Of a DNA stretch of 64,000 nucleotides, positions 11,327-63,961 are shown one piece after another. The stretch is from Chara braunii (lineage: Eukaryota; Plantae; Charophyceae): positions 2,595,803 through 2,659,802 of the forward strand of contig BFEA01000001.1 of the NCBI GenBank assembly GCA_003427395.1. Direction: 5' to 3'. Numbering within the stretch: the first letter of the stretch is position 1; the number at the start of each line of letters is the position of its first letter. Below the pieces are notes generated by a model that did no database searches, was not told the DNA's origin, and saw only the letters and a program-made list of their open reading frames with translations. The translations under genes were made by a program, and so were the position numbers.

Positions 11327-11365
11327 AGTTATTCTCGGAGGACCCCGAATTTAGGCCGGCAGGAG

Positions 11366-12265
11366 TGAAACACTATTCACCTGTTCGCAGTAGCCGATGC
11401 AGATCCCAGGGCTCGGTCCCTAGACTTATCTTACCTGTGTACAGTATCTGTGTCGACCCCGAGAGTTGAACCCGTGACCTGTGTATTTGTAACGTAGGTA
11501 GTGGGGGTTCGATCTGTAGACTTGTCGGGTAGGAGTCTTAGCAAGTTCTAGAAGTCGTAGCTGTAGCTCCTCCGAAAGGTCAAGGTCGTAGCTGCTACAG
11601 TATCGAAAGGCCAAGTCCACCACGGCCTTCCGGAAGGTCCTAGTAGTGGCCTTTCGAAGTTGCTCACGTTTAGGCTGAGGCAAGTGGGCAAGTGGTGGAG
11701 TCCACCCCTGCTGAGTCAGCAGTCCCAGTCCCAGTCAGTCCTAGTCCAGTCAAGCAAGTACCGTATGGGACTGTGTGCACCACGGGCATGGGAAAGGGGC
11801 AGACCAACGAGGTACAAAAGTATAAATCAAGAGGCAGCGCCCAGCCATTCATTCATTCCTGCGTAAGCCATTCGGGAGCGCAGCCACAGCGACTTGTGCG
11901 AGGTGGTCCGCAGTGGGCCCGAAGATGAAGTGGGCGAGAGAAGGAGCTTAGCCATAGCAATAGGGTAGCGGCGGCCATAGCCGCCATAGCTGCTAGGAGA
12001 GTGTAGCGTGTATGTGTGTGTGTGAGTGCACAGTGTACTGCGTGTGGGATATCCAAGGTGATCCTAAGATGAGTGCGTGTGAACAGGGGAGTTGAGTGAA
12101 GTGTCGAACAGAGAGTTGTGTGGGCGCTGAGGCGCCATAGCCATTTGAAGTGAACTCGAATCTGAACTGCGTTTTTGGCTACCATATCTCTGAGTTCTGA
12201 GTGGGCGGTTGTCGCCAGTTTGCTGCGCAACCTGTTTGCATGCATGTGAAGTGTGAATGAAAGCG
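11366..12265 (+). repeat. 3' LTR (visible part)
   Basis: Follows the PPT and matches 3418-4340. Confidence 0.93.
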
Positions 12266-12733
12266 ANNNNNNNNNNNNNNNNNNNNNNNNNNNNNNNNNN
12301 NNNNNNNNNNNNNNNNNNNNNNNNNNNNNNNNNNNNNNNNNNNNNNNNNNNNNNNNNNNNNNNNNNNNNNNNNNNNNNNNNNNNNNNNNNNNNNNNNNNN
12401 NNNNNNNNNNNNNNNNNNNNNNNNNNNNNNNNNNNNNNNNNNNNNNNNNNNNNNNNNNNNNNNNNNNNNNNNNNNNNNNNNNNNNNNNNNNNNNNNNNNN
12501 NNNNNNNNNNNNNNNNNNNNNNNNNNNNNNNNNNNNNNNNNNNNNNNNNNNNNNNNNNNNNNNNNNNNNNNNNNNNNNNNNNNNNNNNNNNNNNNNNNNN
12601 NNNNNNNNNNNNNNNNNNNNNNNNNNNNNNNNNNNNNNNNNNNNNNNNNNNNNNNNNNNNNNNNNNNNNNNNNNNNNNNNNNNNNNNNNNNNNNNNNNNN
12701 NNNNNNAGCATAACTGTGATGTGACCACCTATA

Positions 12734-18104: not shown

Positions 18105-18627
18105 GCCCCGGCTCCATTTCCATTCTGGGGAGCATCAGTCCGGTTTCTATTCCACCGGCAAGTCAGGTTAAAACATTACATCATGAAACCCACTAACGCT
18201 TCCTTCCGTCCGGCCGAAGGATCGCTGACCAGCATTGATTACTCCAACATCGTGGAGGATTGACTGTCAGCTTGCCTTACTTCCTCCTTCCCTCTCAGGT
18301 CAACTGCATGACCTGTCAAATAAATAATAAAAAGCAACCGTCCAGACGGATTAATCAATGCTGCTCAGGGGTCCTTCGGCCAGACGGAAGGAAGCGTGAG
18401 TCTGTCTTAATTGTTTTGTATAATTCCGACTTGCCGGTGGAATAGGAACCAGACTGACGCATTCAGCTGCGTGTCCAGCTCAACTGGCGTACTATTCTTT
18501 CGCCTTTTACTAAAGAATACCGTGGGCTGAGCACACTGAGCAGCTTATCACAATTTTTCACGGCCCTTCGCTCCGCCGAATAAAAAGAAAAGGAACCGGA
18601 CTGACGCTCCCCAGAATAGAAGGAGCC
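18105..18627. mobile_element. MITE/foldback-like long inverted repeat
   Basis: TCAGTCCGGTTTCTATTCCACCGGCAAGTC pairs with GACTTGCCGGTGGAATAGGAACCAGACTGA (~18428-18457). ACGCTTCCTTCCGTCCGGCCGAAGGA pairs with TCCTTCGGCCAGACGGAAGGAAGCGT. The outer arm is repeated at ~18591-18627. Confidence 0.75.
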
Positions 18628-31655: not shown

Positions 31656-34600
31656 CTCCCGCTGGCCTTATTTCGAGGTCCGCCGAGAAAAATCCCACTT
31701 TTACCTGTCGTAGCTGTTCAACCCACGTCCAGCCCTCTCATAGTAGGAAACAATGTGAGGGGCTGTTTGTATAAGTTCCTCCCTGGGGAGCGAGCGGTCC
31801 TCGCTGGGTTCCTGATAAGCGAACCTAACTTTATATTGTCTTTGAGGTCTCCCTCGACGACCGGTTTGGAATGTATCTTCAGCAACTATTCGATCTACAT
31901 CATACTTTCCATCCATATCCGGCGGTATCATGGAGCGTCGGGAGGGAAACTGGTCGTTTGTGATGCAGGGAAGTAACTTAGAGGCGTGGAATACCGGATA
32001 GGTATGCAGGTGGGTTGGAATCTCAATCGTGTAGTATGGACCATCTGCCTCTAACTTGACATCTAAGACTTGCCATCGTCCCCTATATGCGGGTAGCAGT
32101 TTCTGCGAAATCCGCTCCTCAGGAATGAACTCCTAGACTTAACCCATACCAGATCTCCTACCGCAAATTGCGATGGTCGTTGATGTTTGTTAGCTTGTTC
32201 TACCATCTGGTGTTGGGCCTTAAGGATGTTTTTCTTGACTTGCTCTAGATCTTTCTCGTACTGGATAGCAAACTCCCTCGTTCCGGGTGGCAATCTCTGA
32301 ATCTGATCTGGGTTCAGACAGTCGATTGGACGTCGAGGTCGCCAGCCCTTGTGCAGCTCGTCCGGTGTGCGTGCTGTCGACAAGTGTACGGAATTGTTAT
32401 ACGCAGCCTGTACTTTGGGAAGGTGCTCATCCCAGTCGATCTGATCGGGCCTAATATACATGCGAAGCACTTGCTGAAGCAGTTTATTCATCTGCTCAGT
32501 CTGACCATAGTTTCCAGATGTCCGCCGGAAGACATTGTCAATTTCGACCCATAGACTTTCATCAACTGTTGCCAATGCTCGCCCGTGAGCCTACTGTCTC
32601 GATCACTGACAATCGATAGCGGGTGCCCGTAATCCTTCACCCAATGATTGAAAAACTCTTTAATCACTAAATCGGTCTTTGCCTCGGCAGGCAGCGGAAT
32701 AGAAGCAGCGAACTTGCTAAACCTGTCTACAACTACCATCACTTGACTCTTACCATTTCTGCTTTTCACTTTCGTGTCCATGAAACGGACTAGCCAGGAC
32801 CGGACGGGATAAGTAGTGGCCTCAACAAGCCCAGTGGCGACTGTGTGGAGCTTTTGTTCCGCTGACACACTTGACAACCCTGGATGTAGGCAATGCAGTT
32901 GTGTTTCATACCGACCCAGGTGTAGGACCGTCGGAGGTTTGCATAAGTCTTCCTCCATCCGCAGTGGCCCTCAATGTCGTGGCGTTCTCCCAAGATCAGA
33001 CTTTTGGTAGTCTCATTGTTTGGGATGCACAGTCTGTCAAACCTATCAGTCTTTTTTCAAATAAGAGTCTGTCACTTACTCTATAGTCTGGAACTTCATG
33101 TGGTGTTGTTTGCACTCTCCTGATGAGTTCGCTGTAAACGGGATCCTCAGTGTACGCAGCTCTAATCTGTTGCTGCTGTTTGGTGTCGGCGTCTAAATAA
33201 GTCAAAATTGCACTGAAAAAGTTTGCGAGTCTACTAAGCGTATCTGCGATGACGTTGTACTTTCCCTTTACTGGCTTCAACTGGAAGTCAAACTGGTCGA
33301 TCTCCCCAGCCCATCTAGTCAACTTAGGAGTCATTCGGGCCTAGGTCTTTAACCAGCATAGAGTCCCACGGTCAGAATAGACTTTGAAATGTCTACCTAG
33401 CAGATAGTGCCGCCAGTGGCTCAGCGCTTCTCTCAAGCCAAGTAACTCACGTTCGTACGTTGACGCAGCGACCTTCTCACTAAGCAATCTACATGACATG
33501 AACTCTACTAGCCTATACCCTTCATCGTTCTGTTGGAGTACAGTGCCTATGCCATATTGGCTTGCGTCAGTAGTTACAATGAATGGCAAGTATGGATCTA
33601 CCTTTTTTAGGACTGGGTATTCGATCAACGCCTTTTCAACTTCTTGAAGGCAAAATTACAGTTTTTATCCCAATTCCAGACTGTTTCCATTCCTCAACAA
33701 CTTACGCAATGGTGCAGCGATCATCGTGAATATTCGCACAAACTTCCGGTAGTAATTCGCTAATCCTAAGAATGTACGCACTTCAGTCAACGTGTGCGGT
33801 GTGGGTCAATCTCTGATGGCTACTATCTTTGCGTCTTCCAGGCTGACCCGTCTTCGTCCAATACGTGGCCTAAGTACAAAACTTGACGCCTAGCCCATTC
33901 GCATTTCTTTGGGTTCACCTTGAACTTTACAGTGCACAACTTCTCTAAACCTAAGCGCAAATGTTGTTGATGCTCCTCTAGAGTCTTACCGAAAATCAAA
34001 ATATTGTCTAGATACGCTACTACAAATTTATCTAACCATTCGCGGAAGAGATCATTCATGCATCTCTGGAATGTAGCAGGGGCATTCGTCATGGCATGAC
34101 CACAAACTCGTAGTGGCCATAGCGAGTCCTAAGGTTGTCTTGTGCTGGTCTTCGGGTTGTACCTCTATCTAATGGTATCCCGATTTCAAGTCAATCTTCG
34201 AGAAGTATGTGCAGCCCTACACTCTATCCAACAAGTCGTCTATCCGCGGCAAAGGTTCAACATTCTTGACCGTAATCACATTCAAACTCCACTAATCTAT
34301 ACACATATACGCAGGTCACCTTCTTTCTTGGGCATAAACAAGACCGATGCGCAGTACGGTGAGGAGTTGGGCTTTATCCAGCCTTTCTCAGTCAGTTCAT
34401 TAAGTTGCTTGCGCAGCTCGTCGAGTTCTTTGGGAGACGTTCTGTAAACCGGTCCCTCGGGAATCTTGCTACCGGGCTCGATCTCTATCGAGTGCTTAAT
34501 CTCTCTTTCGACTACTCCCGCCAGACTTTCCCACATCTGCGAACTTTTCGAACAGTTTCTCAACTTTTGGCAGCGTTGGTATCTCCTCTTTTTTGCCTTC

Positions 34601-35390
34601 ACTTACCGGTCTAACGTATGCTACGAAGACTTGGTCAAGCAAATCGGGTTTGACCACGTGTCTGGCGAACGTGGGGGCACTCGTACAACAAAGGGACAAA
34701 CCGGACTCAACGCCAGACTCACGAAACAACCGCAATTTCTTTTTGCCTCCCTGAGGGCTGGGCAGCCAACATTCATGCTCGCCCATCTTCACATCTGCTC
34801 GCGTGGCTTCTCCCCAACCCGTCCCTAAAATCAGGTCAAAAGGTAGGTTATCCTTCACTAAGAGTGTCAGGGAGTTCAGAACTCTCTCTACCTTAGTCTC
34901 CCCCTCCAACCAAAAGTATGCCTTGATCCCTTTGACATAATCTTCAACTCTCATGTCACGATTGTCTGCGAGCCTACTCACTACCGGCTCATCCAACTCT
35001 TGAAGCTTCATGTCGAGGTGCATCTTCTTCAACCCCCTTCGCCTAGTGTAACTGCTCGTGGACCCACAATCGGCCTAGGCCGCGCATGGCCGCCTCCGGG
35101 GGGGGTTCATAGAACACGCCTACTCGCTCTGTGCTGATCTTTATGTCTGGTAATATAAGTTGCCCTTTGCTCTCCTTCTTTATTTCAGCCCAAGCTTGGC
35201 GACGAGTCATCAACTCATCACCTATGCCGGTGAGAGAACCACCCAGAGAGACCCTAGCACAAGCAGTCTCCGGACAGCTAACTGGGTGGAGGGCTACATC
35301 AAGCTTTGTCGTTGGGACCTTCAGACATGAGGGTGCCTGGTCAGCGCGCGCTTCTACTTGTCTGTCTATGTCTGAAGGCCCAATCCCTTT
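30690..35390 (-). mobile_element. 5'-truncated Ty3/gypsy chromovirus related to the 3418 element
   Basis: Minus-strand protease region (ETACARVSLG), RT (YLDN), RNase H (TDASQYGIG), integrase and chromodomain (YDVDRIV..YKVRFAY). PPT AAGGCCAGCGGGAG precedes an LTR starting TGAAAGG. gag and 5' LTR are missing. Confidence 0.92.
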
Positions 35391-36078
35391 CTTATTACTT
35401 TTCTTTTGATTAGAATACTTGCTTTTTCGTTTTCTATTGTTTTTAAATAAAATACAAAACGTTGAAATCCAAAAAAGAAAATATGGTTTATAGGGCATTT
35501 CAAACCCTACAACCTTTTTTTTTTTCTTTTTTTTCTTTTTTTTTTTAATCTGAGAATTTCTCGGTCGCGCCTGACCGCCTGGGCCATGGCCTGCGGTCGG
35601 GTTCCTGAACGCCCGCCGAGTTTGACCCCGCGGTCATAACAGCCGGGGACACATAGATGAAGAGGTCTTGTCAACTCAAGCTTACAATCGGACTTTCTGG
35701 AGGCAGGAGAGTGCAACCCAAGCGTGAATGTTTGCGCACTTTCAGTAGGTCGGCGCATGTGCATCCTATACATAGACTTGGCAACTCAGAGCAATGGTGG
35801 TGTAATTGACCTAAAGGGTCAAAATGGGTAGGGAATAAGTACATGTTATGCATTCTTAAGACATGTGCAGAGCACTTAGTCTGCTTCGCACATGGAGTGC
35901 CTAATTGCACTCCACAGCCATATCTTGTCTCCACTGGAATAAACACTATGCAGCTCAAGGGGCCCCTCCACGGTACCTTCATGCCAATTACACATGTTCC
36001 TTCGTGCCCATTACACATATTTTATCATGGCGATTACATGTGTTCCTTCATCCCGATTACACGCATTCCTTTGTGCCA

Positions 36079-48064: not shown

Positions 48065-48425
48065 TGATGATGATGATGTGAGGGCACATACCTCGTATTG
48101 GCTGTGGTCTGCATTGGTCGACGTCTTCAAGTACTTCGTCGGCTACTCACGTCGACTGTTGCATTGTCAATTAGTAGGCTAGTGGTAACTGTGTGGGGAA
48201 TAGGCTGGGCATCGAAGCACCAAGTAGGGAGAAGGGTCTGGAAGCATATGTTCGTGGTGGGAGAGCGAGCTCTCCTTGACATTTGGTTTTCAGTGTTACG
48301 ATTCTCCCTTGGTGTTATATTAGTGCAATGTTGCTTTCTGGATACGGCTATACATTCTGACTTTCAATGTGATTGTGCATTCTGAATATTGCCATCTTGT
48401 TATTGCTCAATTCCTTTGCGCACTA

Positions 48426-48490
<65 letters not shown>

Positions 48491-49958
48491 CGAGTTTTAA
48501 TCTTAGCTATAATATGTGACTGTCGAAGCGAAGGGGGCAAAAATGGAGGGGATGATGCATTAGGGGGTAGAAGAGTACAGTGGGAGAAAGAAAAGAGGAG
48601 GGAAAACGCATAGAGAAGAAAGGCGGGTGCGGAGTGGAAAGAAGGTGGCGAAGGAGTGAAGCAAGCATATAGGTGAAAGAGGAATGTGCATGACTTGAAG
48701 AAAAGAAGCGGATGTGTAGGAGGGGATACGATTGAAAAAGTGAAGGTGGAGTAGGCTCTTACTTATTCTACACCTCTCGAGCCAATCCACACGGTCGGAC
48801 TGCATGAAAGTTCAATATGCCTTCCTCTCTCTTGCCACTCATTCGTCCCATTACGGTTTTGGGTAATAGTAAATAGGGGCCAGAGAATCTCGTAGTTAGT
48901 ACATGGGAGATAGAGAGAATGAGAGAAAAGGAAGAAGAAGAAGGGAGAGAGAAAGGAGACGAGAAGCAAAAAAAACATATAGATAAACAGATACAGACTG
49001 ACCAGACAAAGGTAAAATAGCGACAGACAAACAGTCAGACAGACTGACAAACAAAGACAGTCAAACAAAAACAGACAGTCTGATAAGACAAAACCACGGA
49101 TAGGAACAGACAGACACATGCCGATAGCGACAGACAAACTGACGGACCAAGACAGACTGACGGACAAACGGACAGAGACAGATAAACAGACGAAACAGAT
49201 ACCGACAGCGACAAACAGATAGACAACGACACACAAAAACAGACATACAGGAACAGACAGGCACAGACAGGCAGACACACGCACGCATAGACATAGCCAC
49301 ACACCCGCAGACACAGAGAGAGAGAAAGGGAAGAAGAGACAGTCGACCAAACAGACACATAACGGACAGACAACACAGATAGAGAAGAGAGTTACTTACC
49401 GTAAGGTGAGGATGCAGGTATTGGGCTGCTGACTTTTGAGTTATTAAGCATAGGGTGACTGATCTCTGAAACTGTTTAAAGTTATAATTTATTGAAACTT
49501 CTAAGTTGCGCATATCTGGAGTTTGCCTCTCTGGTTTCCAGTGTGGGTATTGTATGATCTCTCCGTGAGTGTGTGTGTGAATGTGTGTGTCTGTGTGTGT
49601 GTGTGTGCACATGTGTGAGTTCATGCGCATGCTTGCATCCAAGTTATGTCATGTTCGTTATACACGGCCACCGGATAGGCACGACTGTGCCAGAATGTCT
49701 CCGATTGATCGGGAGGTTGGTCCCAATAGTCTTTCCGGGAGGCATTTGACTGATGGATAAGGGTTCATCGCATCACACAGATTCAGTGATACCCCTAAGG
49801 AAAATGGTCATCATACGAACCCTGCAGCAGACTGTCGGATCACGCCCCTGACACAGGCACCCGTAAGTCTGAGAAACTAATATGACACAGTCATAAAACC
49901 CGTTGTGTGTATGTGTATATGCGAGAAGAATAGAGGAAGAGAAAGAAGGAGGAGAATG

Positions 49959-50013
<55 letters not shown>

Positions 50014-50385
50014 GTGACGATGTAAGGGCACGTACCTAGGCTTGGTGATAGTCTACGGGGGTCGAAGCCTGAATGTACTTAGATTCGGTTGTTGACGTCA
50101 ATTGGATACATTGTCAATTCATTGGCTGCTAGCCTGCTAGCGAGTTGTGTGGCTGTAGCCTGTGTATTGAGCTCGGGTAGAGGGAGGACTCTGAGTACTT
50201 ATATCTGGGAATAATGAGAGCATAATCTTACTGACATTCAGATTCAGAACTTTGGTTCTCCGTTGATGGAATGCGAGTACATTACTGTCTTCCGGACGCT
50301 GACGGACTTCCTGGCTTTCAATGTGATCTCGCGATATGCAATCTGTCCTTCCACCTTTGCCCATTGCCTTACGGTGCTATTATTA

Positions 50386-50456
<71 letters not shown>

Positions 50457-50470
50457 GTTGTTATTAATGT
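48065..50470. repeat. Two diverged ~350 bp units (48070-48430, 50015-50380), each between a GA/GAT tract and (TTA)n
   Basis: Shared GATGT.AGGGCAC.TACCT, CATTGTCAATT and CTG.CTTTCAATGTGAT in the same order with the same flanking microsatellites. Confidence 0.65.
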
Positions 50471-51153
50471 TGTTATTGATTCAGTAGTTTGTGGTCTCAA
50501 CCAGCCTCATGCCGCCCTAAGAGAAGGCAGGCCTTAATGTCCGCCAAGGGCCCTTACCCCTGCATTTTTTTGATAGGGGTCGTGAACAGTAATGCAGGCT
50601 AGTTGGTTGAAGTCCGCCCCGGGCACACGCAGCATGAGGCCAGCATAGTAAGATGGGGGCCGCAAGCCACTAAGACGGTAGCATTGTCGCCGCATCCACG
50701 CACGGGCACTAAACGGCTTGGGCCGCGGCCAAACAGCATGACACCAGCAGACTATGGTCAGGCAGGGCATCAAACGCACATGGTTCTAGAAACACGCGTA
50801 CCGAACGGTGAGCGGGTTGCTATGCCCCGGGGTGTGTGGTAGGAACAAGGATAATGCATGAGGGAGAAAAAAAAATGTTAGAAAATGAGAAAAAGAAGGA
50901 GGAGGAAAGTGAAATAAGGAGGGGATCAATGGCAAAGAGGGCGAAAAGACTGTTTTTGTGGCTCCTGCATGTTTGTTTTTTTTTCAAAGAGATAAATTAT
51001 TTATTGTACTAAAAATATTCTCTTTACTATTGCTCCCTAAACTTTTATTTTTTCGGTTGATTGTCATTGTTATTGACTATCATTCATTAATTAGTATCAT
51101 GGAAAAGAAAGCGGATCAGATGGGGAGGGAAAGAGCAAGGTACCAGAGGGAGA

Positions 51154-53017
51154 CATCGTCACCGTGTGACGATGCCTACCTCCTCCATTCTCCTCTGTTC
51201 TCTCCTTGATTTAATCCCTTCTTTTCCTTTTTCTCCATATTTATCCAGTAATATTATTATAATCATCGTCATTGTTATCATATTGCTATTGAAGGTAATG
51301 AGAAAGATCAGATTTGAGAATTATGGGGCACTGGAGTGGAGAGAGACATCGTCACCGTGTGATGGTGCCTACCTCCTCCATCCTTCCCCATTCTCCCGTG
51401 ATCTAATCCCCTCACTTCCCTTTGTTTTCACAAACTATCCAAAATGGTATGATATCTTTGAATGAAAAATCTACTCTATGGAGAAGGATCAAACAGACGG
51501 AGACAACAGGGCGATTGCGGGAGCTCTGCCGGAACTAGGAGGAACTCTGGAGGCAGGGAACCATGAGGTATGCGTCACCTATTCCGTTCGCATATACCCA
51601 TACAAGTTACAACCTTCTACTGGATTGCCCGTATGGGTGTGTGATATATTGTTTGTGTCTTCTTCAGGACTAAAAGTGTATCGAAATGAAAAAAGGTATA
51701 CGATTGAAGCAAGAATCCTGTCTGATGAAAGGAAGGAACCTAGGAGAACCGAGAAGGAACCTAGTTTGCTTGGGTTTGGGAAACAAAGTTGTGTGATGGA
51801 GGTTCCCGTGGGGTCGTCACACTGTTTGCATGGGCTGACTAAGATGGATGACGGGGTACTTGCCGTGCAAAATTACCCTGCCATTCATCTGACTAAAGTG
51901 ACAATTGATGAAATGTCTGTTTGATTTCAGCATTAGTGACGAGAAGCTGCCGTGCAGTTTTCTTGTTACCTTACAGGCTAGATCTAGAAAGTAATTCGGT
52001 ACTCCCGTGGGGTACATGTCTTCAAACGACTAACAAAAGCAAAGGTAGTGGGAGGCTCCCGTGGGGTTCTCCTATCACAGATCTGACCAAACTTGGAAAG
52101 GAACTAGGTACTCACCGTGCGAGTACACGAACCCCTAAGTCTGGGTCGATCTGCCCGACTTCCCGTGGGAGTCAACATACCTTTTGCTCATTTACGATGC
52201 ATAGGCAAATAGATGAACGGTCAGGGCAACTTAACTAAGAGTTGTTTTGACTGATTTCCTACGCATCAAACTGATAGTAGGGTAACTCCCGGGAGGGTTA
52301 CCCTAATACTTGTTTGATCTGGGGATCGACTAAAAGGAGCAAGGAAATGAGGTGATTGTGTTTGGGCAGTAGACGAATACTCCCGGGTGAGTAACCCTAC
52401 TACTTGTTTGAGTATAATTGATGGATGGCATGATTGATTACTAACGGCCTATCTATTTAACATTGAAGCAGGAAACAGGAGACTTCCGTGGGGTCATCCT
52501 TTTGCTTGTTTGACTCTATCTTAACAGGTATAATAAGATACTCCAGCAAAGGGAGGATCTGGTGTTTGCCTGAGTCCACTAACATAATCCTAGCTCGTCT
52601 GACTCTGAGAAAGCAGTAGGGTGACTCCCGTAGGGTCATCTTATTACACTTTTGAGGATAGACTGAGCTCTGGTTAAAGAGTAATAGAAGGTTTCCGTGA
52701 AGATCACCTATTACTAACTAGAATTATGTATTGACACCTGAATCTGAAGTGTTTTTCTTAATGTTGGGTCAAGTGTGGAGATGGTTCGACCATGACCTCC
52801 TAACTATCTGCTTAACTAATAAAAGGATGCTCTCATATGAGTTATCCGGTCGCCTGCATAAGACTGTTTGAGACAATTGATTGGATAAAGACTGCATGGA
52901 CTTTGAAGAGTGGTTGAGTGTTCCCGTGGGGCTACTAAACTACTCCTTTGACTAACAATTTTTGCCTGGAATTGATCAAGTAGTGGAAGATTCCCGGGTG
53001 AGTCGACCCACTGCTTG
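51154..53017 (+). ncRNA. Array of 16 stem-loops with a conserved CCG(T/G)(G/A) apical loop (putative cis-acting RNA)
   Basis: Loop motifs at 51162, 51355, 51806, 51863, 51950, 52005, 52059, 52115, 52163, 52289, 52383, 52486, 52628, 52695, 52924 and 52994. Each is centred in an inverted repeat with a different stem sequence and many G-T pairs on the + strand. Confidence 0.75.
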
Positions 53018-56000
53018 TGTATGTCAGGACAAGAAGAACAGAAAGGAAAAGTGGACTGCTTCAGCGCGAGCGACTCTAAAAGTCATAGAAAAAACAGAAT
53101 AAGAGGCAAATACCGCGGAGACAAAGAATTAGAAAAGAAGAAGCTCCGCGTAGCCTCAGTACATTAATAAACTCCTAAGGGAGAAAACGTCAAATGGCAT
53201 GAATTGATCTTAGCTAGACTGCCGCGTAAGCACCAAACGGAGTGCTTATCCGCAGGAAAAAGAAATACAGAGACTGAGAGTAGGGGAAATGTGAGTTTCC
53301 CTAAGATAACTTAGGACATAGGCAAGAGACTCCTTGAACAAAAGGAGAAGGGGTGACAGACGACTGAGGGTAGGTAGAAACTAGGGGTTATACTTTGGGA
53401 TGTTAATCCCAAAGCTCACAGACCAGATCTAAGGGCTTGACCCTTAGATATCAATATGTCGAAAATCGAGTGGGGGTGTTGAATCTTTGTTGACCTGTGT
53501 GTGTGCAGGTCCCTGTTTTGATCTACAGCAATTGAAGGAGAAGTCATATAAAGAGGACTCAATTTTTTTGTTACCTCTCGATAACAGGTCGGTCGTTGTC
53601 GATTCAACTTTTCCCCTTTGACTTGATACCCACGTCTAAAATCAAACCCTGTAGTCAGTAAAACTGTCACCTGTGGTCATTGCCTAAATGGTCCTGGTCA
53701 CTCTCAAGGGTCCTTTGAAGAAATGTGAGGGGGTTGGGCTTACGTCTCAGGAAAGATAGAGTTGTCATACATGGTTTGGGGAGTGAGGGACAATGTCAAT
53801 GGTTGATGGTTGATGTCGTCAGTGCATGGCATGTGAACTGTTTTTGCATCATTTTGTGCAGGTCTGTCTTGTGCATGATTTGGATTGAACTGGGATTGAC
53901 ATCGTGAAGAGTCTTGGACACACATCACTTGTGAAAGTGAGAAGGGTTCCCAACGGTAATACCTCTGTATTCATTTTTAGTCTTATATAACTTTTATACC
54001 ATATGATGTTCAGTCATATGTTAAGTAGAATAAAATGCCCTTGGTAGTGACAAGGTTTGTTTGATACTTTGATCATAGTGGTCAGAAGGAGATGTTTTGG
54101 GAGCAGAAGCGAAAATGGACGACCATCTCAAAGTTTGACCTGAATATCTAACGGCCATGAAGGATGAGAGGAGCTTTCTGCTTGGCACCGCCAGTCTTCT
54201 GCTGTTCAAAGAAGATAAGGGCATTGCGCGCAATCTGCAAAGGTAAAACATGGCCGGTATAACGGTGTGCTGATCACCACCCGCATGCTGAACAGAGAAA
54301 GGAGACATGTGAAGAGGATATGTTCTCACGAGAGTGCATGACGCGCGTGAAGTAAGGAGAGACGGTTCGCATGAGAAAGTTTACGCGCGAGTTAGCTGCT
54401 GACGTCAGCATTTTGTCGCAACATGAATCTTGATTCAACTTCAACATGACACCCGTCAGCTCCTTGCTTCTTGAAATTCGAGAAGTTGAGAGGGAACGTG
54501 CAGGCTGCTTATCATTATGAGTGGGGCCATGCTAAGTTTTTGTTATGGAGGATGATAGTGATGAGTATTGTTTGTTTGGTTAGTGAGCCCAGCGGTCAGG
54601 GCCTAACATCTGATAGACTTAAGATGTGAGTTCAAGCTTTACAAGCGAAGACCAGTCATCCTCGACAGGAGTAGTGGTTGCGAGACCGATAGGACTAAGC
54701 TGACAGCTAAGTATACTTGGGTACCGAAAGATCATGCCGCTTAAGGGAGTGGTTGATAGCGACCAAAATTAAAAGAACCTTAATAAGACTCTAGATATTG
54801 CGTTCCCACGTAATCCTGACAAGGCCGCTTGGTAGGGTGAGTGGGTAGTGTCTTGGAAGGGTCAAGTAGCTTTGCACAGCAAGAGGGGTAGTTTTACTGT
54901 TNGCTCTGAGCTCTTCTGAAGTTTTCGCTCTTAATAAAGGTATTTTCTTCCTTTTCTTGATCGGTCATTCGACGCTGCCGAAGGACTCTTGTGCTANTCT
55001 CACAGACACTCGGACTGAATTGAGCGTGATGGTCTAGTTTTGACTAATGAACAAGAGAAAACTGGTGCTGAGAAAAGTCGCTTACCTGCTGGCTAAATAT
55101 TTNCTTGACGGGGATTAGTGATCTGCACTTTAATTTTAGCTGGCTCAAGTGTATAATGGGTAACGGGTAAGCCATCGGGAANCAGAGTGCATTTGTGGGT
55201 TGAGAAAAGTACACACAGTTCATGTTATGCGGTACTCAGAGGAACGCTCAACTAGGTTCTGGTATGCCAGCTCACCTGTGAGTTGGATTGCGGAATCTAA
55301 TTACTCANAAGATAAAATCCCATGAGATGCTATGATGTGTTGTGACATTTTAGGNAGAGCCGGGTCTTAATTGTTAAATTTTCTTGTCTTTTAAGGGGGC
55401 NAGAGCAGNGGGNTCAATGTCTTGAGGAGTGAGCTTGGTGAGTAANTATGNNTTTTTGTTGTGTTTCCCTGAGCCATGGTACTCGAGGACAGACTGAGTG
55501 GGGCCTACAATTTCCTTGAAATCCTTTTGAGTGAGTTATCAGGGATGGTTTCGTAACTAGTTCGGCACTAGGCGAGACTCAGACCTGAGCTTCACTTGTA
55601 TCAATAACAAAAGTATTGTGTGATACATGAGTGGAGATCGTAGTTGCACTATTCGGGTGATGAGGGCTTTTGTTGACGTTGCCCCGCGCTCTGTGCATAA
55701 TGAACCGTGTGGTGTAGAGTCTGTCGCAAGAGTGTCCATCTTTAACAAAAGCCAGACCAGGAGGTGAGCATGCTCTGATTGAATTCGTAATCAACCTTTG
55801 GGGGTGAGATTTGTCTTTGTAGTCGAGCGTGAGGGACAGGGTGGTCCTCCGTCAATAGCACCCCAAGTTTTGTTATCTGAAGGGTCAGGACCATCCGTGA
55901 TGGGTCTCTATCCCGAAGTTGAGGAGTTAAATTGAGAACTGTTCGCAGGGGAAACTCTTGTAGCCTTGCGTCTATTTCAGGAAAACTTTGACTCATGCGA

Positions 56001-56116
56001 AACAGACTCAGGCAATCTGCAAATGGACCCAGACAACCCAGTGTGGGCTCCGGTAATTCAGTATAAGTACAGACAAACCCTGTGTGTAACTCTGTGATAC
56101 CGATCGTGAAGAAGTC

Positions 56117-56362
56117 ATGAAGAAGGACGAAATTCTAATGGTGAAAGGTAGATCGGATAGGGATAAGAGAGAAGGCTGGGAGGAAGAGGCGAGTAGGGAT
56201 ATGGAAGGACATAGACTAACTAAAAGAGAGTTTGCGGTTGAAACAGTAGGAGAGAGAAGGTACATCGAATTTGTGATCTACTTTGACGGGCCCGATGGTA
56301 AACTGCATAGTACTGGTTTTTCGCTAGAGAGCGTGGAGCAGGCCAAGGCAAAACTTGCGTGA
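56117..56362 (+). CDS. Small unknown protein (81 aa), paralog of 57865-58116
   Basis: Ungapped alignment from the start Met gives 18/81 identities to the 83 aa ORF. Confidence 0.6.
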   Translation: MKKDEILMVKGRSDRDKREGWEEEASRDMEGHRLTKREFAVETVGERRYIEFVIYFDGPDGKLHSTGFSLESVEQAKAKLA

Positions 56363-56634
56363 GCCCAACAGAGTTGAGATCATTGTTTCCATAATTTTTA
56401 CTAGTGTCCAAATAGTGGCAGTCTGCAGCCTCCTCCGTGGCATGAGGATGCTGGTGTCAACAATCCAAATACTCGGTACATATTTAGACAGTCAGAGCTG
56501 GGACTAGGCTAGGATCAGCGTTCAGACATCGGGGTTGACACAGTAACCAGAGTGGTAACCGGAAACGGCTGTCAGAGAACAGGTTTTCTAGGCAGCAATT
56601 GGGGACCGTGTCTAGAACAAGTATTCGAAAGGCA

Positions 56635-56745
56635 TCCGGAACCATACTCAGAACCGTATCCGGAACCATACTCAGAACCGTATCCGGAACCATACTCAGA
56701 ATCATATCCGGAACCATACTCCGAACCATACTCGGATTCTTACTC
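56635..56745. repeat. 12/24 bp tandem repeat
   Basis: CCGGAACCATACTCAGAACCGTAT about 4 times. A decayed 12 bp period recurs at ~57380-57500. Confidence 0.85.
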
Positions 56746-57864
56746 AGCCACTATTCGGTCCTTTACTTGATTGATGTTTCGCAACCAGTCAGTGGTCAGA
56801 GAAGGCACTTCTGAATGAAAATTTTTGCGGCAATAGTCAGTCGTTAACCAAGTGGTGGTCAGACAGTGACAGGACCAGCAACCAGAACGGCAAGCAGATT
56901 AGGGGTCAAAGCCTCATCCAAAAACTACAACTAAAAGAAAAAAAAGAGGGAGAAAGGGGGCGAGGGTAGCCCTCAAGGCAGTATTTTGAAGAAATAGCAT
57001 TCAAAGCCGACTCCTAGAACGTTTCTAGTGCAGCGCCCGGGACTGTACTCGAAACCGTGTTCAGATTGGGACAGTTCTTAACAAATAGTTCAATCACTAT
57101 TTTAATCCATAGTTGTTTAACAGACGGTCAACTTGACCTGACAGCGGACGTTCATTGGCAGACTACGGTTATCTCGACCTCTAGCAACTTGCCCTTTATC
57201 AGCAAACATCAACAACACTCAGTCTACACCGTCAACAGTCAAACGACAGCGTTCAGTTTTCAGTCAGCGACTAATCAACATCTAACCAGCCAAAAGAGAA
57301 GGTGTTTAGATCAGGACTCATATTATTTTGAACGGTATTCAGGTCCGGATTTGGGCTCTGTACTTTGGACTTAACTGTGCTCGGAACTGTACTTGGGCAG
57401 TACTCGTAACTGTACTCGGAGCTGTACTCAGAGCGGTTCTTAGGAAAGTACTTGGAGCCACATTTAGAGCGGTACTTAGGATGGTGCTCTGAACGGTATT
57501 TAACTGTGGATTCGGTTACCTCTCAATTTGCATTTAATCAGCAAACAGCCAACTCAAACGGCAACGAGTGTTCTTTATCAAGCAATAAGTTTTCAGAGCA
57601 GCAATCAGCCAGTAATTGGAAACAACCCTCCAGAGCAGTAATTGCAGTAGTAGCAGTCAACTGGTAATCAAACGGTGAGCGAATGACAACAGAGAACTGT
57701 ATCTAGAACAACAACCACTGCCAACCAGGAACAGCAGCAGGAAACGACAATCTGAAACAACCATTCAAAACAGCAATCTGCCCAATAATCTTTTCACACT
57801 TGTATCATCCAAGAGTCACTCGTATCGAGTTGGTGATCTGATGTAACGAGAATTCAGTGAGAAT

Positions 57865-58116
57865 ATGGACAACAATAGCACAGTCAGAGTCTCCTGCTTG
57901 CTGTATCAGAGTGCTCAAGAGACCTGGAGGGAGAAAGCAGTTGAGGAGTACAATCAGCAGACCGCTATGATGATGGAACGCGCGCTGGTTCTCGTGAGGG
58001 ATCATACAGAAATCGAATACACATACTACCTGCATGATAAGATTGGCAGACTATGTGTCACCATAACTTCAGTGGGCACTATTGAGGAAGCAAGGAGGAT
58101 CGTGGGCAACCACTAG
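57865..58116 (+). CDS. Small unknown protein (83 aa), paralog of 56117-56362
   Basis: Shares ExWxExA, ExAxxxV, IE[FY]xxY and G[KR]LxxTxxS[LV]x[ST][VI]ExA with the 81 aa ORF. Confidence 0.6.
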   Translation: MDNNSTVRVSCLLYQSAQETWREKAVEEYNQQTAMMMERALVLVRDHTEIEYTYYLHDKIGRLCVTITSVGTIEEARRIVGNH

Positions 58117-58315
58117 TGAGTGTTTTGTCTCTGAACGAGTACAGCTCACTTATCCGGACAACCAACAATCATCTAATCAGCAGTCAATTAGCAGCAATCA
58201 GTTATTATTAGTGATCAGTTTCTAGCAATCAGTCTTCAGCAATCATTTTCCTGCAGTCGGTTTGGTAATCTGTTCCCCGGGACCGTCTGATCAGCTTGTA
58301 CTGGCAAGAGTACTC

Positions 58316-58978
58316 ATGAGCACAGTTCAGTCTATGCCGGTAAGTGAGTCAGTGCTGGCCAACCTCAATTGGATCTCATGCAAAGAGGCATTTCATTATC
58401 AGTATGTTAGTGTCATTGGTTTCAGACAGGGAGATCTGTCAAACTTCGTTGTCCAGACCAGTTTTGCTGATGGCACTATCCACGATTTGAGGCCTTATCT
58501 GAAGAAGGGCAAGGAGGCTCATGAACTTTTCGATCCGGTCTGGATCTCAGCCACCAATTGTCTTGAGCAGAGAGAGGGGGAGCTCGATGAGAGTGGTACT
58601 ACATTGATCCGCAGCTTCGGGCCGGCGCTTTATACTGACTATCCTAGGCCTCCGGTCCCTTCTCTTATCACTGATGGCACGAGTTGGTTGGATGTGATCG
58701 GTTTGGCAAAGAGGTACATCTCTCCGACGGTGATCGACATTGAGGCGTTGACTGTGCCCACTAGGTATCCCTACCTTAGACGAGGGGTCTTTTCAGTAGA
58801 CGGGTTGCCTACATTGTGGGAGGAGTTTTGCTCTATGGTTAATTACCATGTTATGTGCCTCGGATGGTCGTGTTCAGAGTTTGCTGGCTACAAGTGGCAT
58901 TTTATCACGAAGCCCCAGTCTCAGACTGTACGTGGGCACCAGAAAAGATCAGTGAAAAGAGAGATTGTGAGAGGCTGA
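58316..58978 (+). CDS. Orphan 220 aa protein
   Basis: Uninterrupted, compositionally complex ORF from ATG 58316, with AATAAA at ~59252 downstream. No recognised domain. Confidence 0.45.
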   Translation: MSTVQSMPVSESVLANLNWISCKEAFHYQYVSVIGFRQGDLSNFVVQTSFADGTIHDLRPYLKKGKEAHELFDPVWISATNCLEQREGELDESGTTLIRSFGPALYTDYPRPPVPSLITDGTSWLDVIGLAKRYISPTVIDIEALTVPTRYPYLRRGVFSVDGLPTLWEEFCSMVNYHVMCLGWSCSEFAGYKWHFITKPQSQTVRGHQKRSVKREIVRG

Positions 58979-59464
58979 CCAGAGGGATGAGTGAGGACTC
59001 TTGAGAGGTGCTGACCATGCCCGTTTACATGTACTTTCTGAGATTATTATGAGTTCTCATTCTTCCCTCATTCAATTGCCCCTATCTTTGCTCAAGTCAG
59101 TCAGTCTTATTTTCTGCATTATTCTTGCTTGATGATTGCCTTCGTGGATGCTTTGTCACAGTTCTCAAAATCAGATTGACAATTGATGCATGCATAGCAC
59201 CCCATAACTTTATGATCATTATTTGCATAACTCTCTACTGTTCCGAATCAAAATAAAAGATTCCTAAGACCGGGGACCGGCGAAGACCGCAATTGAAGGG
59301 TCTCGCTCAAAGCCGAACGCACACAACAGGAAGGGACTTGCATTATTTAATTCATTTTATTTATTGCAATCACATACAAAATCCTGCGTGACAGCCTGTT
59401 GGCTTTCCGATCGCCCGAAGTGGCCCGACTGGAAAAAGTGCGACAACGCGCGTATGTGTGCGCG

Positions 59465-59531
<67 letters not shown>

Positions 59532-60157: not shown

Positions 60158-60329
60158 GTATGTGTGTATGTGTGCATATGTGTGGTCGTGTATGTGTGTG
60201 TGTGTGTGTGCGTATGTGTGTATACGTATGTGTGTGTGCGCTCGCGTGTTTGTGTGTAAATGTGTTTGTTTGTGTGTGAGTGTGTGTGTGCCTGCACACA
60301 CATTTTTTTTCCCGAATACATTCCTCAAG

Positions 60330-60792
60330 AATCAACAAAAGAGTTTGGAATCGATCGTGCCAAAAATGCGAACGTGAAGGCAAAGCGAAAGTCAGTTCCA
60401 AGAAAAAATCTCTGCAAGATATTCGTATTTTGCATAAATCTACCAACCTTCAGATTTCAAAGACTGTCTTTTATCGGGCCGTTGAAGAAATTACCAAGGA
60501 CAGGAAGAACGACGCCCGAGTGCATCTCCTTCCTCTCCAAGCTCTTCAAGCTCTTCAAGAGATTTCAGAGCAATGGATAAGTCAATTATTCCGAGACACG
60601 GTTTTGGTAGCATCTTGTACCAGACGTGTGTCAGTCCTTCCTAAGGATCTCCACACCGTCATTATGATACGGAACGATGAATTCAGTGAGGGGTGGAAGG
60701 AGAAAGTTAGGGATTGCATACCACCAGCACCTTTGACAAGTTATGAGAAGACTTGGGTACAGCGGATGAAACCAAGGCGGACAAAGAAATGA
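60330..60792 (+). CDS. Highly divergent histone H3-like protein (histone fold plus C-terminal extension); start unresolved, possibly a pseudogene
   Basis: SLQDIRILHKSTNLQISKTVFYRAVEEI...ALQEISEQWISQLFRDT...RVSVLPKDL...IR aligns with H3 [28 protein letters not shown]...ALQEAAEAYLVGLFEDT...RVTIMPKDI...IR. No in-frame ATG upstream of the fold. Confidence 0.8.
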
Positions 60793-63296
60793 AATGTAGA
60801 CGAAGTTTGACTGTGAAGAGTTGTACGTGTAACATACGCCAAGAGGGGGAATGTTAAGGTTTTTTTTTTTTGACTTTTTTTTTTCTAGGCACTTTGTTGC
60901 TACGGCGGAGGCTTAGACGTGCTCCTCAGCACAACAGAACAAAGATTCGATGACCAATGAACTCAATGATGATGAATATTATTCCATGGTTTGAGGAGAA
61001 TGAACTTTCAGGGTTGTAGTGTTTACAACAAAACACAGAATTGTGCATGTGCTTTATATTCCTTGGTTCCGTTTTTTACTATGGAAATGGCGGTTTTTTT
61101 TCTGGTTATCGTCATGGCATCGCGGTTGGTTGTTTCCTGTTGTTCGGCATCTGGTGCAGGGGCGGTGCTCATATGTAGGAAATGACATCCGCGTTTGTCT
61201 TTTACGTTGTTCCTGGTGGGGTTCAAAGCCGATCGTGTTTTGATCTGCATCCCGGATGGTTTTGTCTTGTTGTTCGGTCTATTTTGGCGTGGCATCATAG
61301 CGCTGCTCTCATGTGGGACTAATCATCCAGGTTCTGGTTTTGTCTTGGGATGTATTGTTGTCGGACATGTTGAAATTTCTGAATAAGGCATTTGAGTTCA
61401 CGGACGTCCGCAGCCATATCAGCATTGGAAACTTTTATATATAGTCGTGTTGTGAAAAAAAAAAAAAAAAAAAAGGATATCCTGGTTGCTTTTGTCCCGT
61501 CGTTTTCCCTTTGGCGCGGCGGCAACTATTTGTGTTTGTGTTATTGCTTGTTGCCCCCTGTTCAGTTATATTTCGCTATTCCCTTCCTCTTTTCTTCGCC
61601 TTTTTGCCTTTCGGGCCTTCGACTGTGTACAAGTGGATCGATATGACACACGGGGGTGGGGGCAGCCGACGCTCAATCTACATCCACGTGGGCGGCCTTG
61701 CATGCAAGAGGTTCTGAACAGGGGGAGTTTTTCTAAACTGGAAATAAAATATGAATTTAATTTATTTTTTTTTCGTTTTTGCGCTTTGATAAATGTGTGA
61801 CNNNNNNNNNNNNNNNNNNNNNNNNNNNNNNNNNNNNNNNNNNNNNNNNNNNNNNNNNNNNNNNNNNNNNNNNNNNNNNNNNNNNNNNNNNNNNNNNNNN
61901 NNNNNNNNNNNNNNNNNNNNNNNNNNNNNNNNNNNNNNNNNNNNNNNNNNNNNNNNNNNNNNNNNNNNNNNNNNNNNNNNNNNNNNNNNNNNNNNNNNNN
62001 NNNNNNNNNNNNNNNNNNNNNNNNNNNNNNNNNNNNNNNNNNNNNNNNNNNNNNNNNNNNNNNNNNNNNNNNNNNNNNNNNNNNNNNNNNNNNNNNNNNN
62101 NNNNNNNNNNNNNNNNNNNNNNNNNNNNNNNNNNNNNNNNNNNNNNNNNNNNNNNNNNNNNNNNNNNNNNNNNNNNNNNNNNNNNNNNNNNNNNNNNNNN
62201 NNNNNNNNNNNNNNNNNNNNNNNNNNNNNNNNNNNNNNNNNNNNNNNNNNNNNNNNNNNNNNNNNNNNNNNNNNNNNNNNNNNNNNNNNNNNNNNNNNNN
62301 NNNNNNNNNNNNNNNNNNNNNNNNNNNNNNNNNNNNNNNNNNNNNNNNNNNNNNNNNNNNNNNNNNNNNNNNNNNNNNNNNNNNNNNNNNNNNNNNNNNN
62401 NNNNNNNNNNNNNNNNNNNNNNNNNNNNNNNNNNNNNNNNNNNNNNNNNNNNNNNNNNNNNNNNNNNNNNNNNNNNNNNNNNNNNNNNNNNNNNNNNNNN
62501 NNNNNNNNNNNNNNNNNNNNNNNNNNNNNNNNNNNNNNNNNNNNNNNNNNNNNNNNNNNNNNNNNNNNNNNNNNNNNNNNNNNNNNNNNNNNNNNNNNNN
62601 NNNNNNNNNNNNNNNNNNNNNNNNNNNNNNNNNNNNNNNNNNNNNNNNNNNNNNNNNNNNNNNNNNNNNNNNNNNNNNNNNNNNNNNNNNNNNNNNNNNN
62701 NNNNNNNNNNNNNNNNNNNNNNNNNNNNNNNNNNNNNNNNNNNNNNNNNNNNNNNNNNNNNNNNNNNNNNNNNNNNNNNNNNNNNNNNNNNNNNNNAAAA
62801 GAATTAAAATGAGTGATTGTGCCAACACCTTTTCGACACTGCCATTTTTGCCGATTTTTAATTATTTTTTGCCATTGACAAATGCCCTGAAAATTTACAG
62901 ATATGTAGTTTACATAATCAATAACTCATTAACAAATTTTAAAAAAATAATAAAAATTGTTAGGTCCCGAAATAAAGTGAAAACAAAAGCTAAAAATGAA
63001 AAAAAACAAAATAGTGAGTAGGCGAGCATGTTTTGACACCCCCATCTTTGACGATTTTTAATGTTTTTTTGGCTCAGCAGGATGACTTCAAATTTGTAGG
63101 CGCGTAGGTTACATCATAGAGGACTCACAAAAAACAATTCAGAAAAAAAAACTAATTTCTAGGCCCCGAAATTGTTTTTGGCGGGGGCCGAACCTAAGGT
63201 ATTCGGCCCCCGAACGCTCGAACGTTCGGGGGCCAGCCCGGGGCCCCCCAAACATTCGGTCAGGTAACCCTGTATATATATATATATATATATATA

Positions 63297-63443
63297 GGCG
63301 GTTATGCTCTGTGTCATACTGCATCATGATGCTGGAAGGAAGACAAACCACCTTAACGAAATGTCGTTGCCCGACATAACGCCTGCATATACAGTCACAC
63401 AGAAGACACACACACACAAAAAAAAAGAAGAAAAAAAAAAAAG

Positions 63444-63484
<41 letters not shown>

Positions 63485-63600
63485 TTTGTCTCTTTGTCGT
63501 AAAGGTGGTTATGCTCCGTGTCCTACTGCATCCTAATCCAGGAAGGGAACCGAACCACCTTTACGACATGGCGTTGCTCGAGTGACATAGACACACGCAC

Positions 63601-63647
<47 letters not shown>

Positions 63648-63769
63648 TACACAGAGAGAGAGAGGATTTGTGTCTTTGGCGTAAAGGTGGTTATGCTTAG
63701 TGTCCTACTGCATAAGGATGCAGGAAGGGAGTCAAACCACCTTTACGACATACCGTTGCTCGAGTGACA

Positions 63770-63808
<39 letters not shown>

Positions 63809-63961
63809 ATATAAAGAGAGAGACAAAGGATTTATGTCTTTGTCGTAAAGGTGGTTATGCTCTGTGTCCGAATGCATCAAGATGCAGGAAGGGAGCCAAA
63901 CCACCTTTACGACACACCGTAGCTTGACTGACACAAACACAGACATACGTACACACAGAGC

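What the first reader, a model, noticed from the sequence alone, without database searches (positions are those of the whole stretch)
56117..58116. Two ~80 aa ORFs are ungapped paralogs of an unrecognised small-protein family
Seen: aligned from Met1 without gaps, the 81 and 83 aa proteins share 18 identities (M1 V9 E19 W21 E23 A25 E38 A40 V44 I50 E51 Y55 G61 L63 T66 S69 E74 A76) and many conservative swaps (F/Y52, K/R62, L/V70, S/T72, V/I73, K/R77), with little obvious DNA similarity. Inference: an old duplication kept under protein-level selection. A compact alpha/beta fold like this is a natural candidate for the factor that binds the upstream CCGUG hairpin array, by analogy to Rev/RRE or coat protein/operator pairs.
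Basis: partly seen in the sequence, partly recalled or inferred. Interest (0 to 1): 0.8.

Follow-up and report, generated by a model that had tools for sequence, protein, structure and literature searches.

The report
Twin small genes in algal retrotransposon
Two related 80-amino-acid genes of a family with no known relatives outside the stonewort alga Chara sit in a repeated element, likely in the unusually long end repeat of a jumping gene; at least one has been kept under protein-level selection, and they would likely act as helper proteins for the element, but nothing yet ties them to the nearby RNA hairpins.

Summary
The paralogy is real. ORF A (56117-56362) and ORF B (57865-58116) align without gaps at 18 of 81 identities (0 of 20,000 shuffles reach it), and differ most at third codon positions. 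A search of 1.8 billion proteins found two more members, both Chara braunii gene models; one bridges A and B, the other joins an A orthologue to Gypsy gag-pol. Both ORFs lie in a multicopy repeat, followed by a 220-codon ORF C and a very high-copy end in CA at 59445. Among other copies of B, 20 of 39 listed variants are synonymous (12.8 expected), with no stops or indels and no change at A/B-shared columns. Best reading: accessory genes in the U3 of a long Gypsy LTR (about 0.6). The left end and PBS were not shown, and a Penelope-like element remains possible. The hairpin array is real, but the partner idea has no support: both proteins are acidic, no fold match is significant, and the array may belong to another element. 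This scan has already reported LTR-borne genes in other genomes and accessory-gene arrays elsewhere in Chara.

The parts
56117..56362 (+). ORF A, 81 aa, paralog 1
   Evidence: orthologue P0001 is 66% identical over 44 aa; summed DNA contig depth about 250-340
57865..58116 (+). ORF B, 83 aa, paralog 2; in about 80% of the laid depth the stop lies one codon further
   Evidence: 20 synonymous and 19 non-synonymous listed variants, no stop, no indel
58316..58978 (+). ORF C, 220 aa, unrelated to A/B, no known family; same repeat, higher depth
   Evidence: none of the 12 listed indel rows falls in it; selection not tested
56363..57864 (+). A-B spacer with 12/24/48-bp tandem repeats (56634-56747, 57373-57481), poor in sense-strand ATG
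   Evidence: 7 ATG against 16.0 expected and 23 CAT
59239..59445 (+). Very high-copy terminal segment ending in CA, followed by a (TG)n/(GA)n microsatellite; likely R-U5 of an LTR
   Evidence: depth about 119,000 in bin 59240-59374; two low-depth contigs match up to 59448 and run on for about 580 and 2,160 unlike bases; sequence
51789..53014 (+). Array of 11 hairpins with a CCGUG-type loop; membership of the same element not shown
51478..51924 (+). ORF D, 148 aa, no family, unrelated to A, B, C; membership of the element not shown
55627..56100 (+). Frame of about 155 codons with internal stops just before A; possibly a decayed further gene, not related to A-D
   Evidence: by inspection only
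54972..54981 (+). Candidate left end 1 at 54976 (ACGC then TG; exact 4-bp match to the right flank; element 4,470 bp); not significant on its own
50017..50031 (+). Candidate left end 2 at 50021 (ACGA then TG; one mismatch; element 9,425 bp); may instead start a separate 430-bp repeat

Best explanation
A and B are two diverged paralogous genes carried by a multicopy repeat of Chara braunii, likely in the U3 part of a long (4.5 kb or more) Ty3/Gypsy LTR left here as a solo or 3' LTR, and they likely encode small acidic adaptor proteins that would act in trans to help the element escape or regulate host control. Shown: paralogy; further family members in two Chara gene models; multicopy status; purifying selection among copies of B; an element end at about 59445. 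Inferred: that the element is an LTR (about 0.6). In that case every LTR, full or solo, would carry the A-B-C cassette, the genes would lie in the 3' part of the genomic RNA like MMTV Sag, and the conserved 200-bp end would be an R-U5 shared by many subfamilies whose U3 and gene content diverge. Inferred, weaker: expression from the sense RNA by leaky scanning or reinitiation across the AUG-poor spacer, or from spliced subgenomic RNAs. Weakest (about 0.35): a protein-binding regulatory or counter-silencing role rather than RNA-hairpin binding.
For: Paralogy. Family: the A+B profile against 1.84 billion proteins gave 3 hits at E<=0.001. Two are Chara braunii gene models; the third is a 5,666-aa repeat protein that scores at most 2.8 bits per domain with the 4-sequence profile. 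P0001 joins an A orthologue to a downstream gag-like stretch and RT/RNase H in the same sense. Repeat status: 7,702 contigs of one DNA run were laid, with depth rising from about 300 (A) to about 1,850 (B), 3,000-12,000 (C) and about 119,000 (end); the exact match to this copy has depth 11. Selection: 20 of 39 in-ORF variants are synonymous against 12.8 expected (p=0.01, crude omega 0.46); 0 stops; 0 indels; 0 of 16 changed codons lie at the 17 non-Met shared columns (p=0.016). None of 11 listed indel sites falls in A, B or C, which cover 29% of the stretch (p=0.023). Terminus: it ends in CA. Two low-depth contigs run far into unlike sequence downstream but break about 60-70 bases upstream, as expected if the upstream sequence is also repeated. 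Subfamily divergence confined to the 5' half of LTRs is published for Podospora crapaud (abstract). Plant LTRs of up to about 5 kb are known (passage). Charge: pI 5.7 and 5.5. AUG depletion of the spacer.
Against: No second LTR, PBS or gag-pol lies next to this copy in the window. The left end is not fixed, and ACG-N-TG sites occur at chance rate (13 in 16 kb). The link to Gypsy rests on one automatic gene model in a genome full of Gypsy elements. The depth gradient and the microsatellite flank also fit a 5'-truncated Penelope-like element. The selection test used 40 of 51 variant rows (the best supported), from one run; variants share ancestry; third-position excess alone is borderline (19 against 13.7, p=0.055); zero stops alone is not significant (p=0.23). 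A was not tested for selection among copies. The 10 listed near-fixed differences in C are 9 non-synonymous and 1 synonymous; I read them as private changes of this copy, so this copy may be decaying. The third member P0002 is basic (pI 9.6), so acidity is not family-wide. RNA reads are few: 22, 792 and 6 in three libraries, depth about 1.5 over A and 5-6 over B in the best one, on both mate strands, and only 6 of 792 are 99% alike. Seven upstream ATGs remain in the spacer, and ATG is only the third most depleted trinucleotide. No evidence bears directly on function.
Confidence: 0.55

Rival explanations
1. A and B are selected genes of a Gypsy element but lie in its internal region (sense extra ORFs between pol and a short 3' LTR of 200-470 bp), the gag-pol of this copy being lost.
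For: Extra ORFs between pol and the 3' LTR are the commonest published arrangement, often with tandem repeats (PMC7264820 main text; PMC11963269 abstract). A TG at 59239 marks the start of the most conserved segment, and many joints rejoin there.
Against: No purine tract precedes 59239 on the + strand. Loose ends just upstream are diverged homologues of the window, not a boundary. P0001 places the A orthologue upstream of gag, which fits a 5' LTR better.
Confidence: 0.15
2. The repeat is a 5'-truncating Penelope-like (Chlamys-type) or other non-LTR element, perhaps non-autonomous, that carries the small genes and inserts in microsatellites.
For: Depth rises about 400-fold towards the right end, which abuts (TG)n. 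Chlamys elements are very abundant in Chara, 5'-truncated and target (CA)n (PMC8557442 section 9). Two published Chara consensi end in a similar GTGACAA.
Against: No RT or GIY-YIG frame lies in the stretch. A 22-base motif of the terminal segment is absent, on the one strand searched, from that paper's supplement. The 7 of 8 Chara consensus 3' ends visible in passages do not otherwise resemble it by eye. Only 1% of laid contigs run on into unlike sequence.
Confidence: 0.15
3. One reading: A and/or B bind the CCGUG-loop hairpins in the element's RNA, as Rex/RexRE or a phage coat protein and its operator do, to export or package it.
For: The array is real, with paired changes in the stems: 12 cells change on both sides against 5.9 in shuffles, 0 of 500. 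Response elements in or overlapping the 3' LTR are known for HTLV Rex and MMTV Rem (PMC12789967 passages). Weak fold likeness of A to eL38 (Z 5.6) and SRP14 (Z 4.7). Two CCGUG-like stems flank A (55894, 56434).
Against: A and B are net acidic with no arginine-rich motif. The fold scores are below the level of chance arrangements, and B's model gives different best hits. The two flanking stems do not fold better than shuffles (z -0.3 and -0.2). If the left end is 54976, the array is outside the element. In the pair count the +1 slide scores as well as the named register, so the exact register is loose. This rival is compatible with the best explanation on location and differs on function.
Confidence: 0.12
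4. The ORFs are relics: once selected in master elements, now non-functional in all living copies.
For: This copy carries private non-synonymous changes in A, B and C. Little RNA. No exact match among about 15 billion proteins.
Against: Frames stay open among many diverged copies of B. Some family RNA is present in one library.
Confidence: 0.25
5. A and B are ordinary host small genes or chance ORFs.
For: None beyond their lying in a eukaryotic genome.
Against: Multicopy repeat context, shuffle tests, third member.
Confidence: 0.03

Closest known systems
Additional/extra ORFs of plant Ty3/Gypsy elements (Ogre, Retand, Grande gene23, Athila; PMC7264820 main text read; PMC6317226 passages; PMC11963269 abstract; Retrosat2 ORF0, PMC3485330, search listing only)
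   Same: Conserved genes without relatives outside the element, of unknown function, near tandem repeats, proposed to act like retroviral accessory proteins.
   Different: Published ones lie in the internal region and were counted from 250 codons up. These are about 80 codons, duplicated, share no sequence with them in the searches run, and likely lie inside the LTR.
MMTV Sag and the Rem/RmRE and HTLV Rex/RexRE systems (PMC12789967 passages; that Sag lies in U3 is recalled)
   Same: Accessory gene and structured RNA element in or overlapping the long terminal repeat.
   Different: No env or membrane protein, no arginine-rich motif in A or B, no sequence or fold match; host is an alga.
Chlamys Penelope-like elements of Chara braunii (PMC8557442 sections 9 and 10, passages, supplement passages)
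   Same: Same genome, high copy number, microsatellite neighbourhood, copy number rising to the 3' end.
   Different: No RT/GIY-YIG frame and no hammerhead found here; no match to the published ends seen.
Podospora crapaud LTR subfamilies (PMC10787394, abstract only)
   Same: LTR divergence concentrated in the 5' half with a shared 3' half.
   Different: No genes in the LTR are mentioned in the abstract; fungal host.

Membership tests
LTR of a Ty3/Gypsy retrotransposon | Interspersed multicopy repeat with a sharp end | tested here: met
   7,702 contigs laid; low-depth contigs leave the match at 59445-59448
LTR of a Ty3/Gypsy retrotransposon | TG...CA termini | tested here: inconclusive
   CA at 59444-59445; two candidate TG starts (54976, 50021), neither established
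LTR of a Ty3/Gypsy retrotransposon | 4-5 bp target site duplication | tested here: inconclusive
   ACGC/ACGC for 54976, ACGA/ACGC for 50021; such sites occur at chance rate
LTR of a Ty3/Gypsy retrotransposon | Occurs as paired direct repeats around PBS-gag-pol-PPT in full copies | tested here: inconclusive
   Not so in this window; one gene model elsewhere joins the A orthologue to Gypsy gag-pol; whole genome not held
Extra ORFs of plant LTR retrotransposons | Conserved open frame under selection in many copies | tested here: met
   for B only; A only by indel avoidance and an orthologue
Extra ORFs of plant LTR retrotransposons | No relatives outside the element family | tested here: met
   only Chara gene models found; no Pfam family; within the sensitivity of these searches
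Extra ORFs of plant LTR retrotransposons | Position in the internal region relative to gag-pol | tested here: inconclusive
   no gag-pol next to this copy; evidence leans to the LTR
Chlamys/Penelope-like elements | RT plus GIY-YIG ORF | tested here: not met
   no such frame in 50000-59500; does not exclude a non-autonomous element
Chlamys/Penelope-like elements | 5' truncation and microsatellite target | tested here: inconclusive
   depth gradient and (TG)n flank fit, but diverged subfamilies explain them too
Rev/Rex/Rem-type RNA export regulators | Arginine-rich RNA-binding motif (feature recalled) | tested here: not met
   A 16 K+R against 18 D+E, B 9 against 12; no arginine cluster seen
Rev/Rex/Rem-type RNA export regulators | Cognate structured element in the same RNA | tested here: inconclusive
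   array real but not shown to be in the same element
Rev/Rex/Rem-type RNA export regulators | Specific binding and export activity | not testable with these tools
   needs EMSA or a reporter
Known small RNA-binding or coat-protein folds | Significant structural match | tested here: inconclusive
   best Z 6.0 for A (rmsd 5.2, 68 aligned) and 6.8 for B (Rai1 223-296, rmsd 2.5, 65 aligned); models at pLDDT 63 and 68

The most novel reading that the evidence does not exclude
Chara has a Gypsy lineage whose LTR is a 9.4-kb mini-genome (50021-59445). It would hold a hairpin array and a polycistronic cassette of at least four genes (D, A, B, C), in which the duplicated small proteins A and B bind the array as a Rex/RexRE-like regulatory loop, so that even solo LTRs carry a complete trans-acting regulator.
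Probability: 0.08. Interest if true: 0.8.

Novelty: new variant of a known kind. Interest (0 to 1): 0.45.

Why it matters
LTRs are taken to be non-coding, and surveys of extra retrotransposon ORFs used a 250-codon floor and looked at the internal region, so small genes in LTRs would be missed. A multi-gene cassette in an LTR would be copied twice per insertion and survive in solo LTRs. It offers a new 80-aa protein family, small enough to solve, for the open question of what retrotransposon accessory proteins do. It also explains some spurious 'hypothetical protein' models in the Chara annotation. The function is not established, and the location in an LTR is inferred.

Tried and rejected
No whole genome is held, so copies could not be extracted or aligned. 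Word-based protein searches: B alone, no candidate; ORF C, 0 of 268 candidates; 4-sequence alignment against longer proteins, 2 of 1,630 candidates, both already known. Exact look-ups of 13 window proteins: none in the collection. ESM Atlas: no usable hit for A; for C only sub-0.9 likeness to ALO domains, rejected. Pfam: nothing for A, B, C, D. PDB by sequence profile: best E 0.25. Foldseek: no match at E<=0.001 in viral or PDB libraries. B's model resembles the C-terminal half of PD-(D/E)XK nuclease cores (Rai1/DXO, Z 6.8), but this is under the chance level and not shared by A's model, so I did not adopt it. The two models disagree at residues 29-44 (strand in A, helix in B). Resemblance by eye to MBD, AP2/arm-binding and dsRBD motifs (recalled) did not appear in the fold lists. 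A-B complex prediction: no answer, score 0.00 twice. Viral contigs: 0 of 107 pattern matches confirmed. Metagenomes: 0 matches for a terminal 22-mer and 0 of 240 for the alignment. Sequencing-run search: no RNA holder listed. No further paralog in the window's six frames. P0003 rejected as a false hit. Test of whether the tail of P0002 is the antisense shadow of a gag-pol frame: no score clearly above shuffles. Rfam: nothing in the element. The terminal segment does not fold better than shuffles (z -0.85). The bacterial promoter scan does not apply to a eukaryote. Look-ups of earlier findings by place and sequence found no look-alike. Literature searches listed no description of these genes. 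The 2018 Chara genome paper, Repbase and Dfam could not be read and may hold the element.

Full report
Observation. ORF A (56117-56362, 81 aa) and ORF B (57865-58116, 83 aa) are present on the + strand. None of 20,000 shuffles reached 18 identities (max 17), the ungapped score of 55 (max 8) or the local score of 60 (max 55). DNA identity is 38, 38 and 22 of 81 at codon positions 1, 2 and 3. The local score alone would be marginal given about 15,750 possible ORF pairs in the window; the global register and a third member remove the doubt.

Family and host. Single-sequence searches found nothing. A profile of A+B against 1.84 billion representatives gave 3 hits at E<=0.001. Two are Chara braunii gene models. 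P0002 begins with a full-length third paralog (22 identities to A, 24 to B). P0001 begins with an A orthologue (66% over 44 aa) that the gene model joins to a gag-like stretch (my reading) and RT/RNase H. The third hit is a 5,666-aa repeat protein and was rejected. The window is rich in Gypsy fragments and microsatellites, in line with Chara. No relatives were found in viral or metagenome contigs.

Context. Contigs of one DNA run (X1) cover 55460-59480 throughout: 7,702 were laid, mostly 80-95% alike. Summed depth is about 250-340 over A, about 1,850 over B, 3,000-12,000 over a third ORF C (58316-58978, 220 aa, no family) and about 119,000 over 59240-59374. The exact match to this copy has depth 11. 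The tool warns that depth is not copy number, but the stretch is plainly a repeat whose right end is shared by far more copies than its genes. It ends in CA at 59445 before a (TG)n/(GA)n tract. Two low-depth contigs run 580 and 2,160 bases into unlike sequence beyond that point and break 60-70 bases upstream of their match. No second copy, PBS or gag-pol adjoins it in the window. The left end is open. Position 54976 gives an exact 4-bp duplication (4,470 bp), and 50021 gives one with a mismatch (9,425 bp). Such sites occur at chance rate, and 50021 may start a separate 430-bp repeat with a 62% sister at 48077.

Selection. For B, 366 contigs were laid; 40 of 51 variant rows were shown, 39 of them inside the frame. 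Twenty are synonymous against 12.8 expected for the same mutation types (p=0.01; crude omega 0.46). None makes a stop (p=0.23 alone) and no indel is listed. Third-position excess is borderline (p=0.055). None of the 16 changed codons lies at the 17 non-Met columns shared by A and B (p=0.016), while 4 synonymous changes do. The antisense frame that shares third positions shows the same synonymous count but holds stops. Across the 4-kb lay, 12 of 16 indel rows were shown, at 11 sites, none in A, B or C (p=0.023). Limits: one run, variants related by descent, A not tested this way. The near-fixed differences listed in C are 9 of 10 non-synonymous, which I read as private decay of this copy.

Expression. 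Three oligo-dT libraries, 6-13% of each read, gave 22, 792 and 6 reads. In the best one, depth is about 1.5 over A, 5-6 over B and about 15-43 over C, on both mate strands; only 6 of 792 reads are 99% alike. The family is weakly represented in RNA; this copy is not shown to be expressed. The A-B spacer has 7 sense ATGs against 16.0 expected and 23 on the other strand, and the B-C spacer has none. This is a modest hint that several genes are read from one sense RNA.

Structure and the partner idea. Both models are small alpha/beta folds with a first strand, a helix from W21, a hairpin at 49-72 and a C-terminal helix. They disagree at 29-44 and have mean pLDDT 63 and 68. No match is significant (best Z 6.0 and 6.8). 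A and B are net acidic (pI 5.7, 5.5), though P0002's domain is basic. The CCGUG array is real: 11 copies, invariant core, paired stem changes above shuffles though with a loose register. It lies 3.1-4.3 kb upstream of A, and falls outside the element if the left end is 54976. I give hairpin binding about 0.12.

Best explanation. These are accessory genes of a Chara mobile element (about 0.9), likely in the U3 of a long Gypsy LTR whose R-U5 is shared by many subfamilies (about 0.6). They likely act in trans as small adaptors that regulate the element or blunt host control (about 0.35; by analogy only). Rivals: internal extra ORFs before a short LTR, a 5'-truncating Penelope-like element, hairpin binding, and relic status.

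Comparison with what is known. Extra ORFs of unknown function are common in plant Gypsy elements but are described from the internal region (PMC7264820, main text read; PMC11963269, abstract) and were surveyed from 250 codons up (PMC6317226, passages). Retroviral response elements lie in or overlap the 3' LTR (PMC12789967, passages). Chara Chlamys elements are described in PMC8557442 (sections 9 and 10, passages, and supplement passages; one figure page held no text) and do not match by the limited tests possible. LTR subfamilies that diverge in their 5' half are known (PMC10787394, abstract). Eight literature searches listed no description of this family; the 2018 Chara genome paper and repeat databases were not available. 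Earlier notes of this scan report accessory-gene arrays and a same-loop hairpin array in other Chara elements and genes inside LTRs in moss, liverwort, fungal and arthropod genomes. These are unchecked leads, not support, and they show that the arrangement is not unique to this window.

Verdict. A real, selected and undescribed small-protein family in a Chara repeat: a new variant of a known kind. Element class is likely but not proven, and function is untested. Interest 0.45.

Noticed in passing
window 60280-60792 (+): Divergent histone H3-like ORF of 170 aa (Pfam Histone, E 1.5e-12) just outside the element, with an unusual N-terminus and a C-terminal extension; not in the protein collection by exact match.
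   Followed up: partly
window 48077-48500 and 50021-50477: Two 62%-identical copies of a roughly 430-bp repeat, each preceded by (GA)n and ending in (TAT)n; possibly a SINE-like or microsatellite-targeting element.
   Followed up: partly
window 18465-18578 (+): U5 spliceosomal RNA above the Rfam gathering score.
   Followed up: no
window 3418-12700: Gypsy element with two 93%-identical LTR parts (3418-4339, 11366-12266) and a broken gag-pol; its LTR is unrelated to the element studied.
   Followed up: no
window 31700-35500 (-): Second, decayed Gypsy pol; its end looks like a chromodomain by eye (motif recalled, not tested).
   Followed up: no
window 54902-55452: Eleven isolated N positions in 550 bases, suggesting uncertain assembly of this part of the repeat.
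   Followed up: no
window 58970-59445: In two sparse RNA libraries (22 and 6 reads in all) first mates lie on opposite strands either side of about 59100-59240, which would fit divergent transcription; too few reads to conclude.
   Followed up: no
P0001, P0002: Both Chara gene models appear to be artefacts that splice or extend a small repeat-borne ORF into unrelated sequence.
   Followed up: partly
window 63293-63957: Tandem repeat of about 200-bp units with embedded microsatellites.
   Followed up: no
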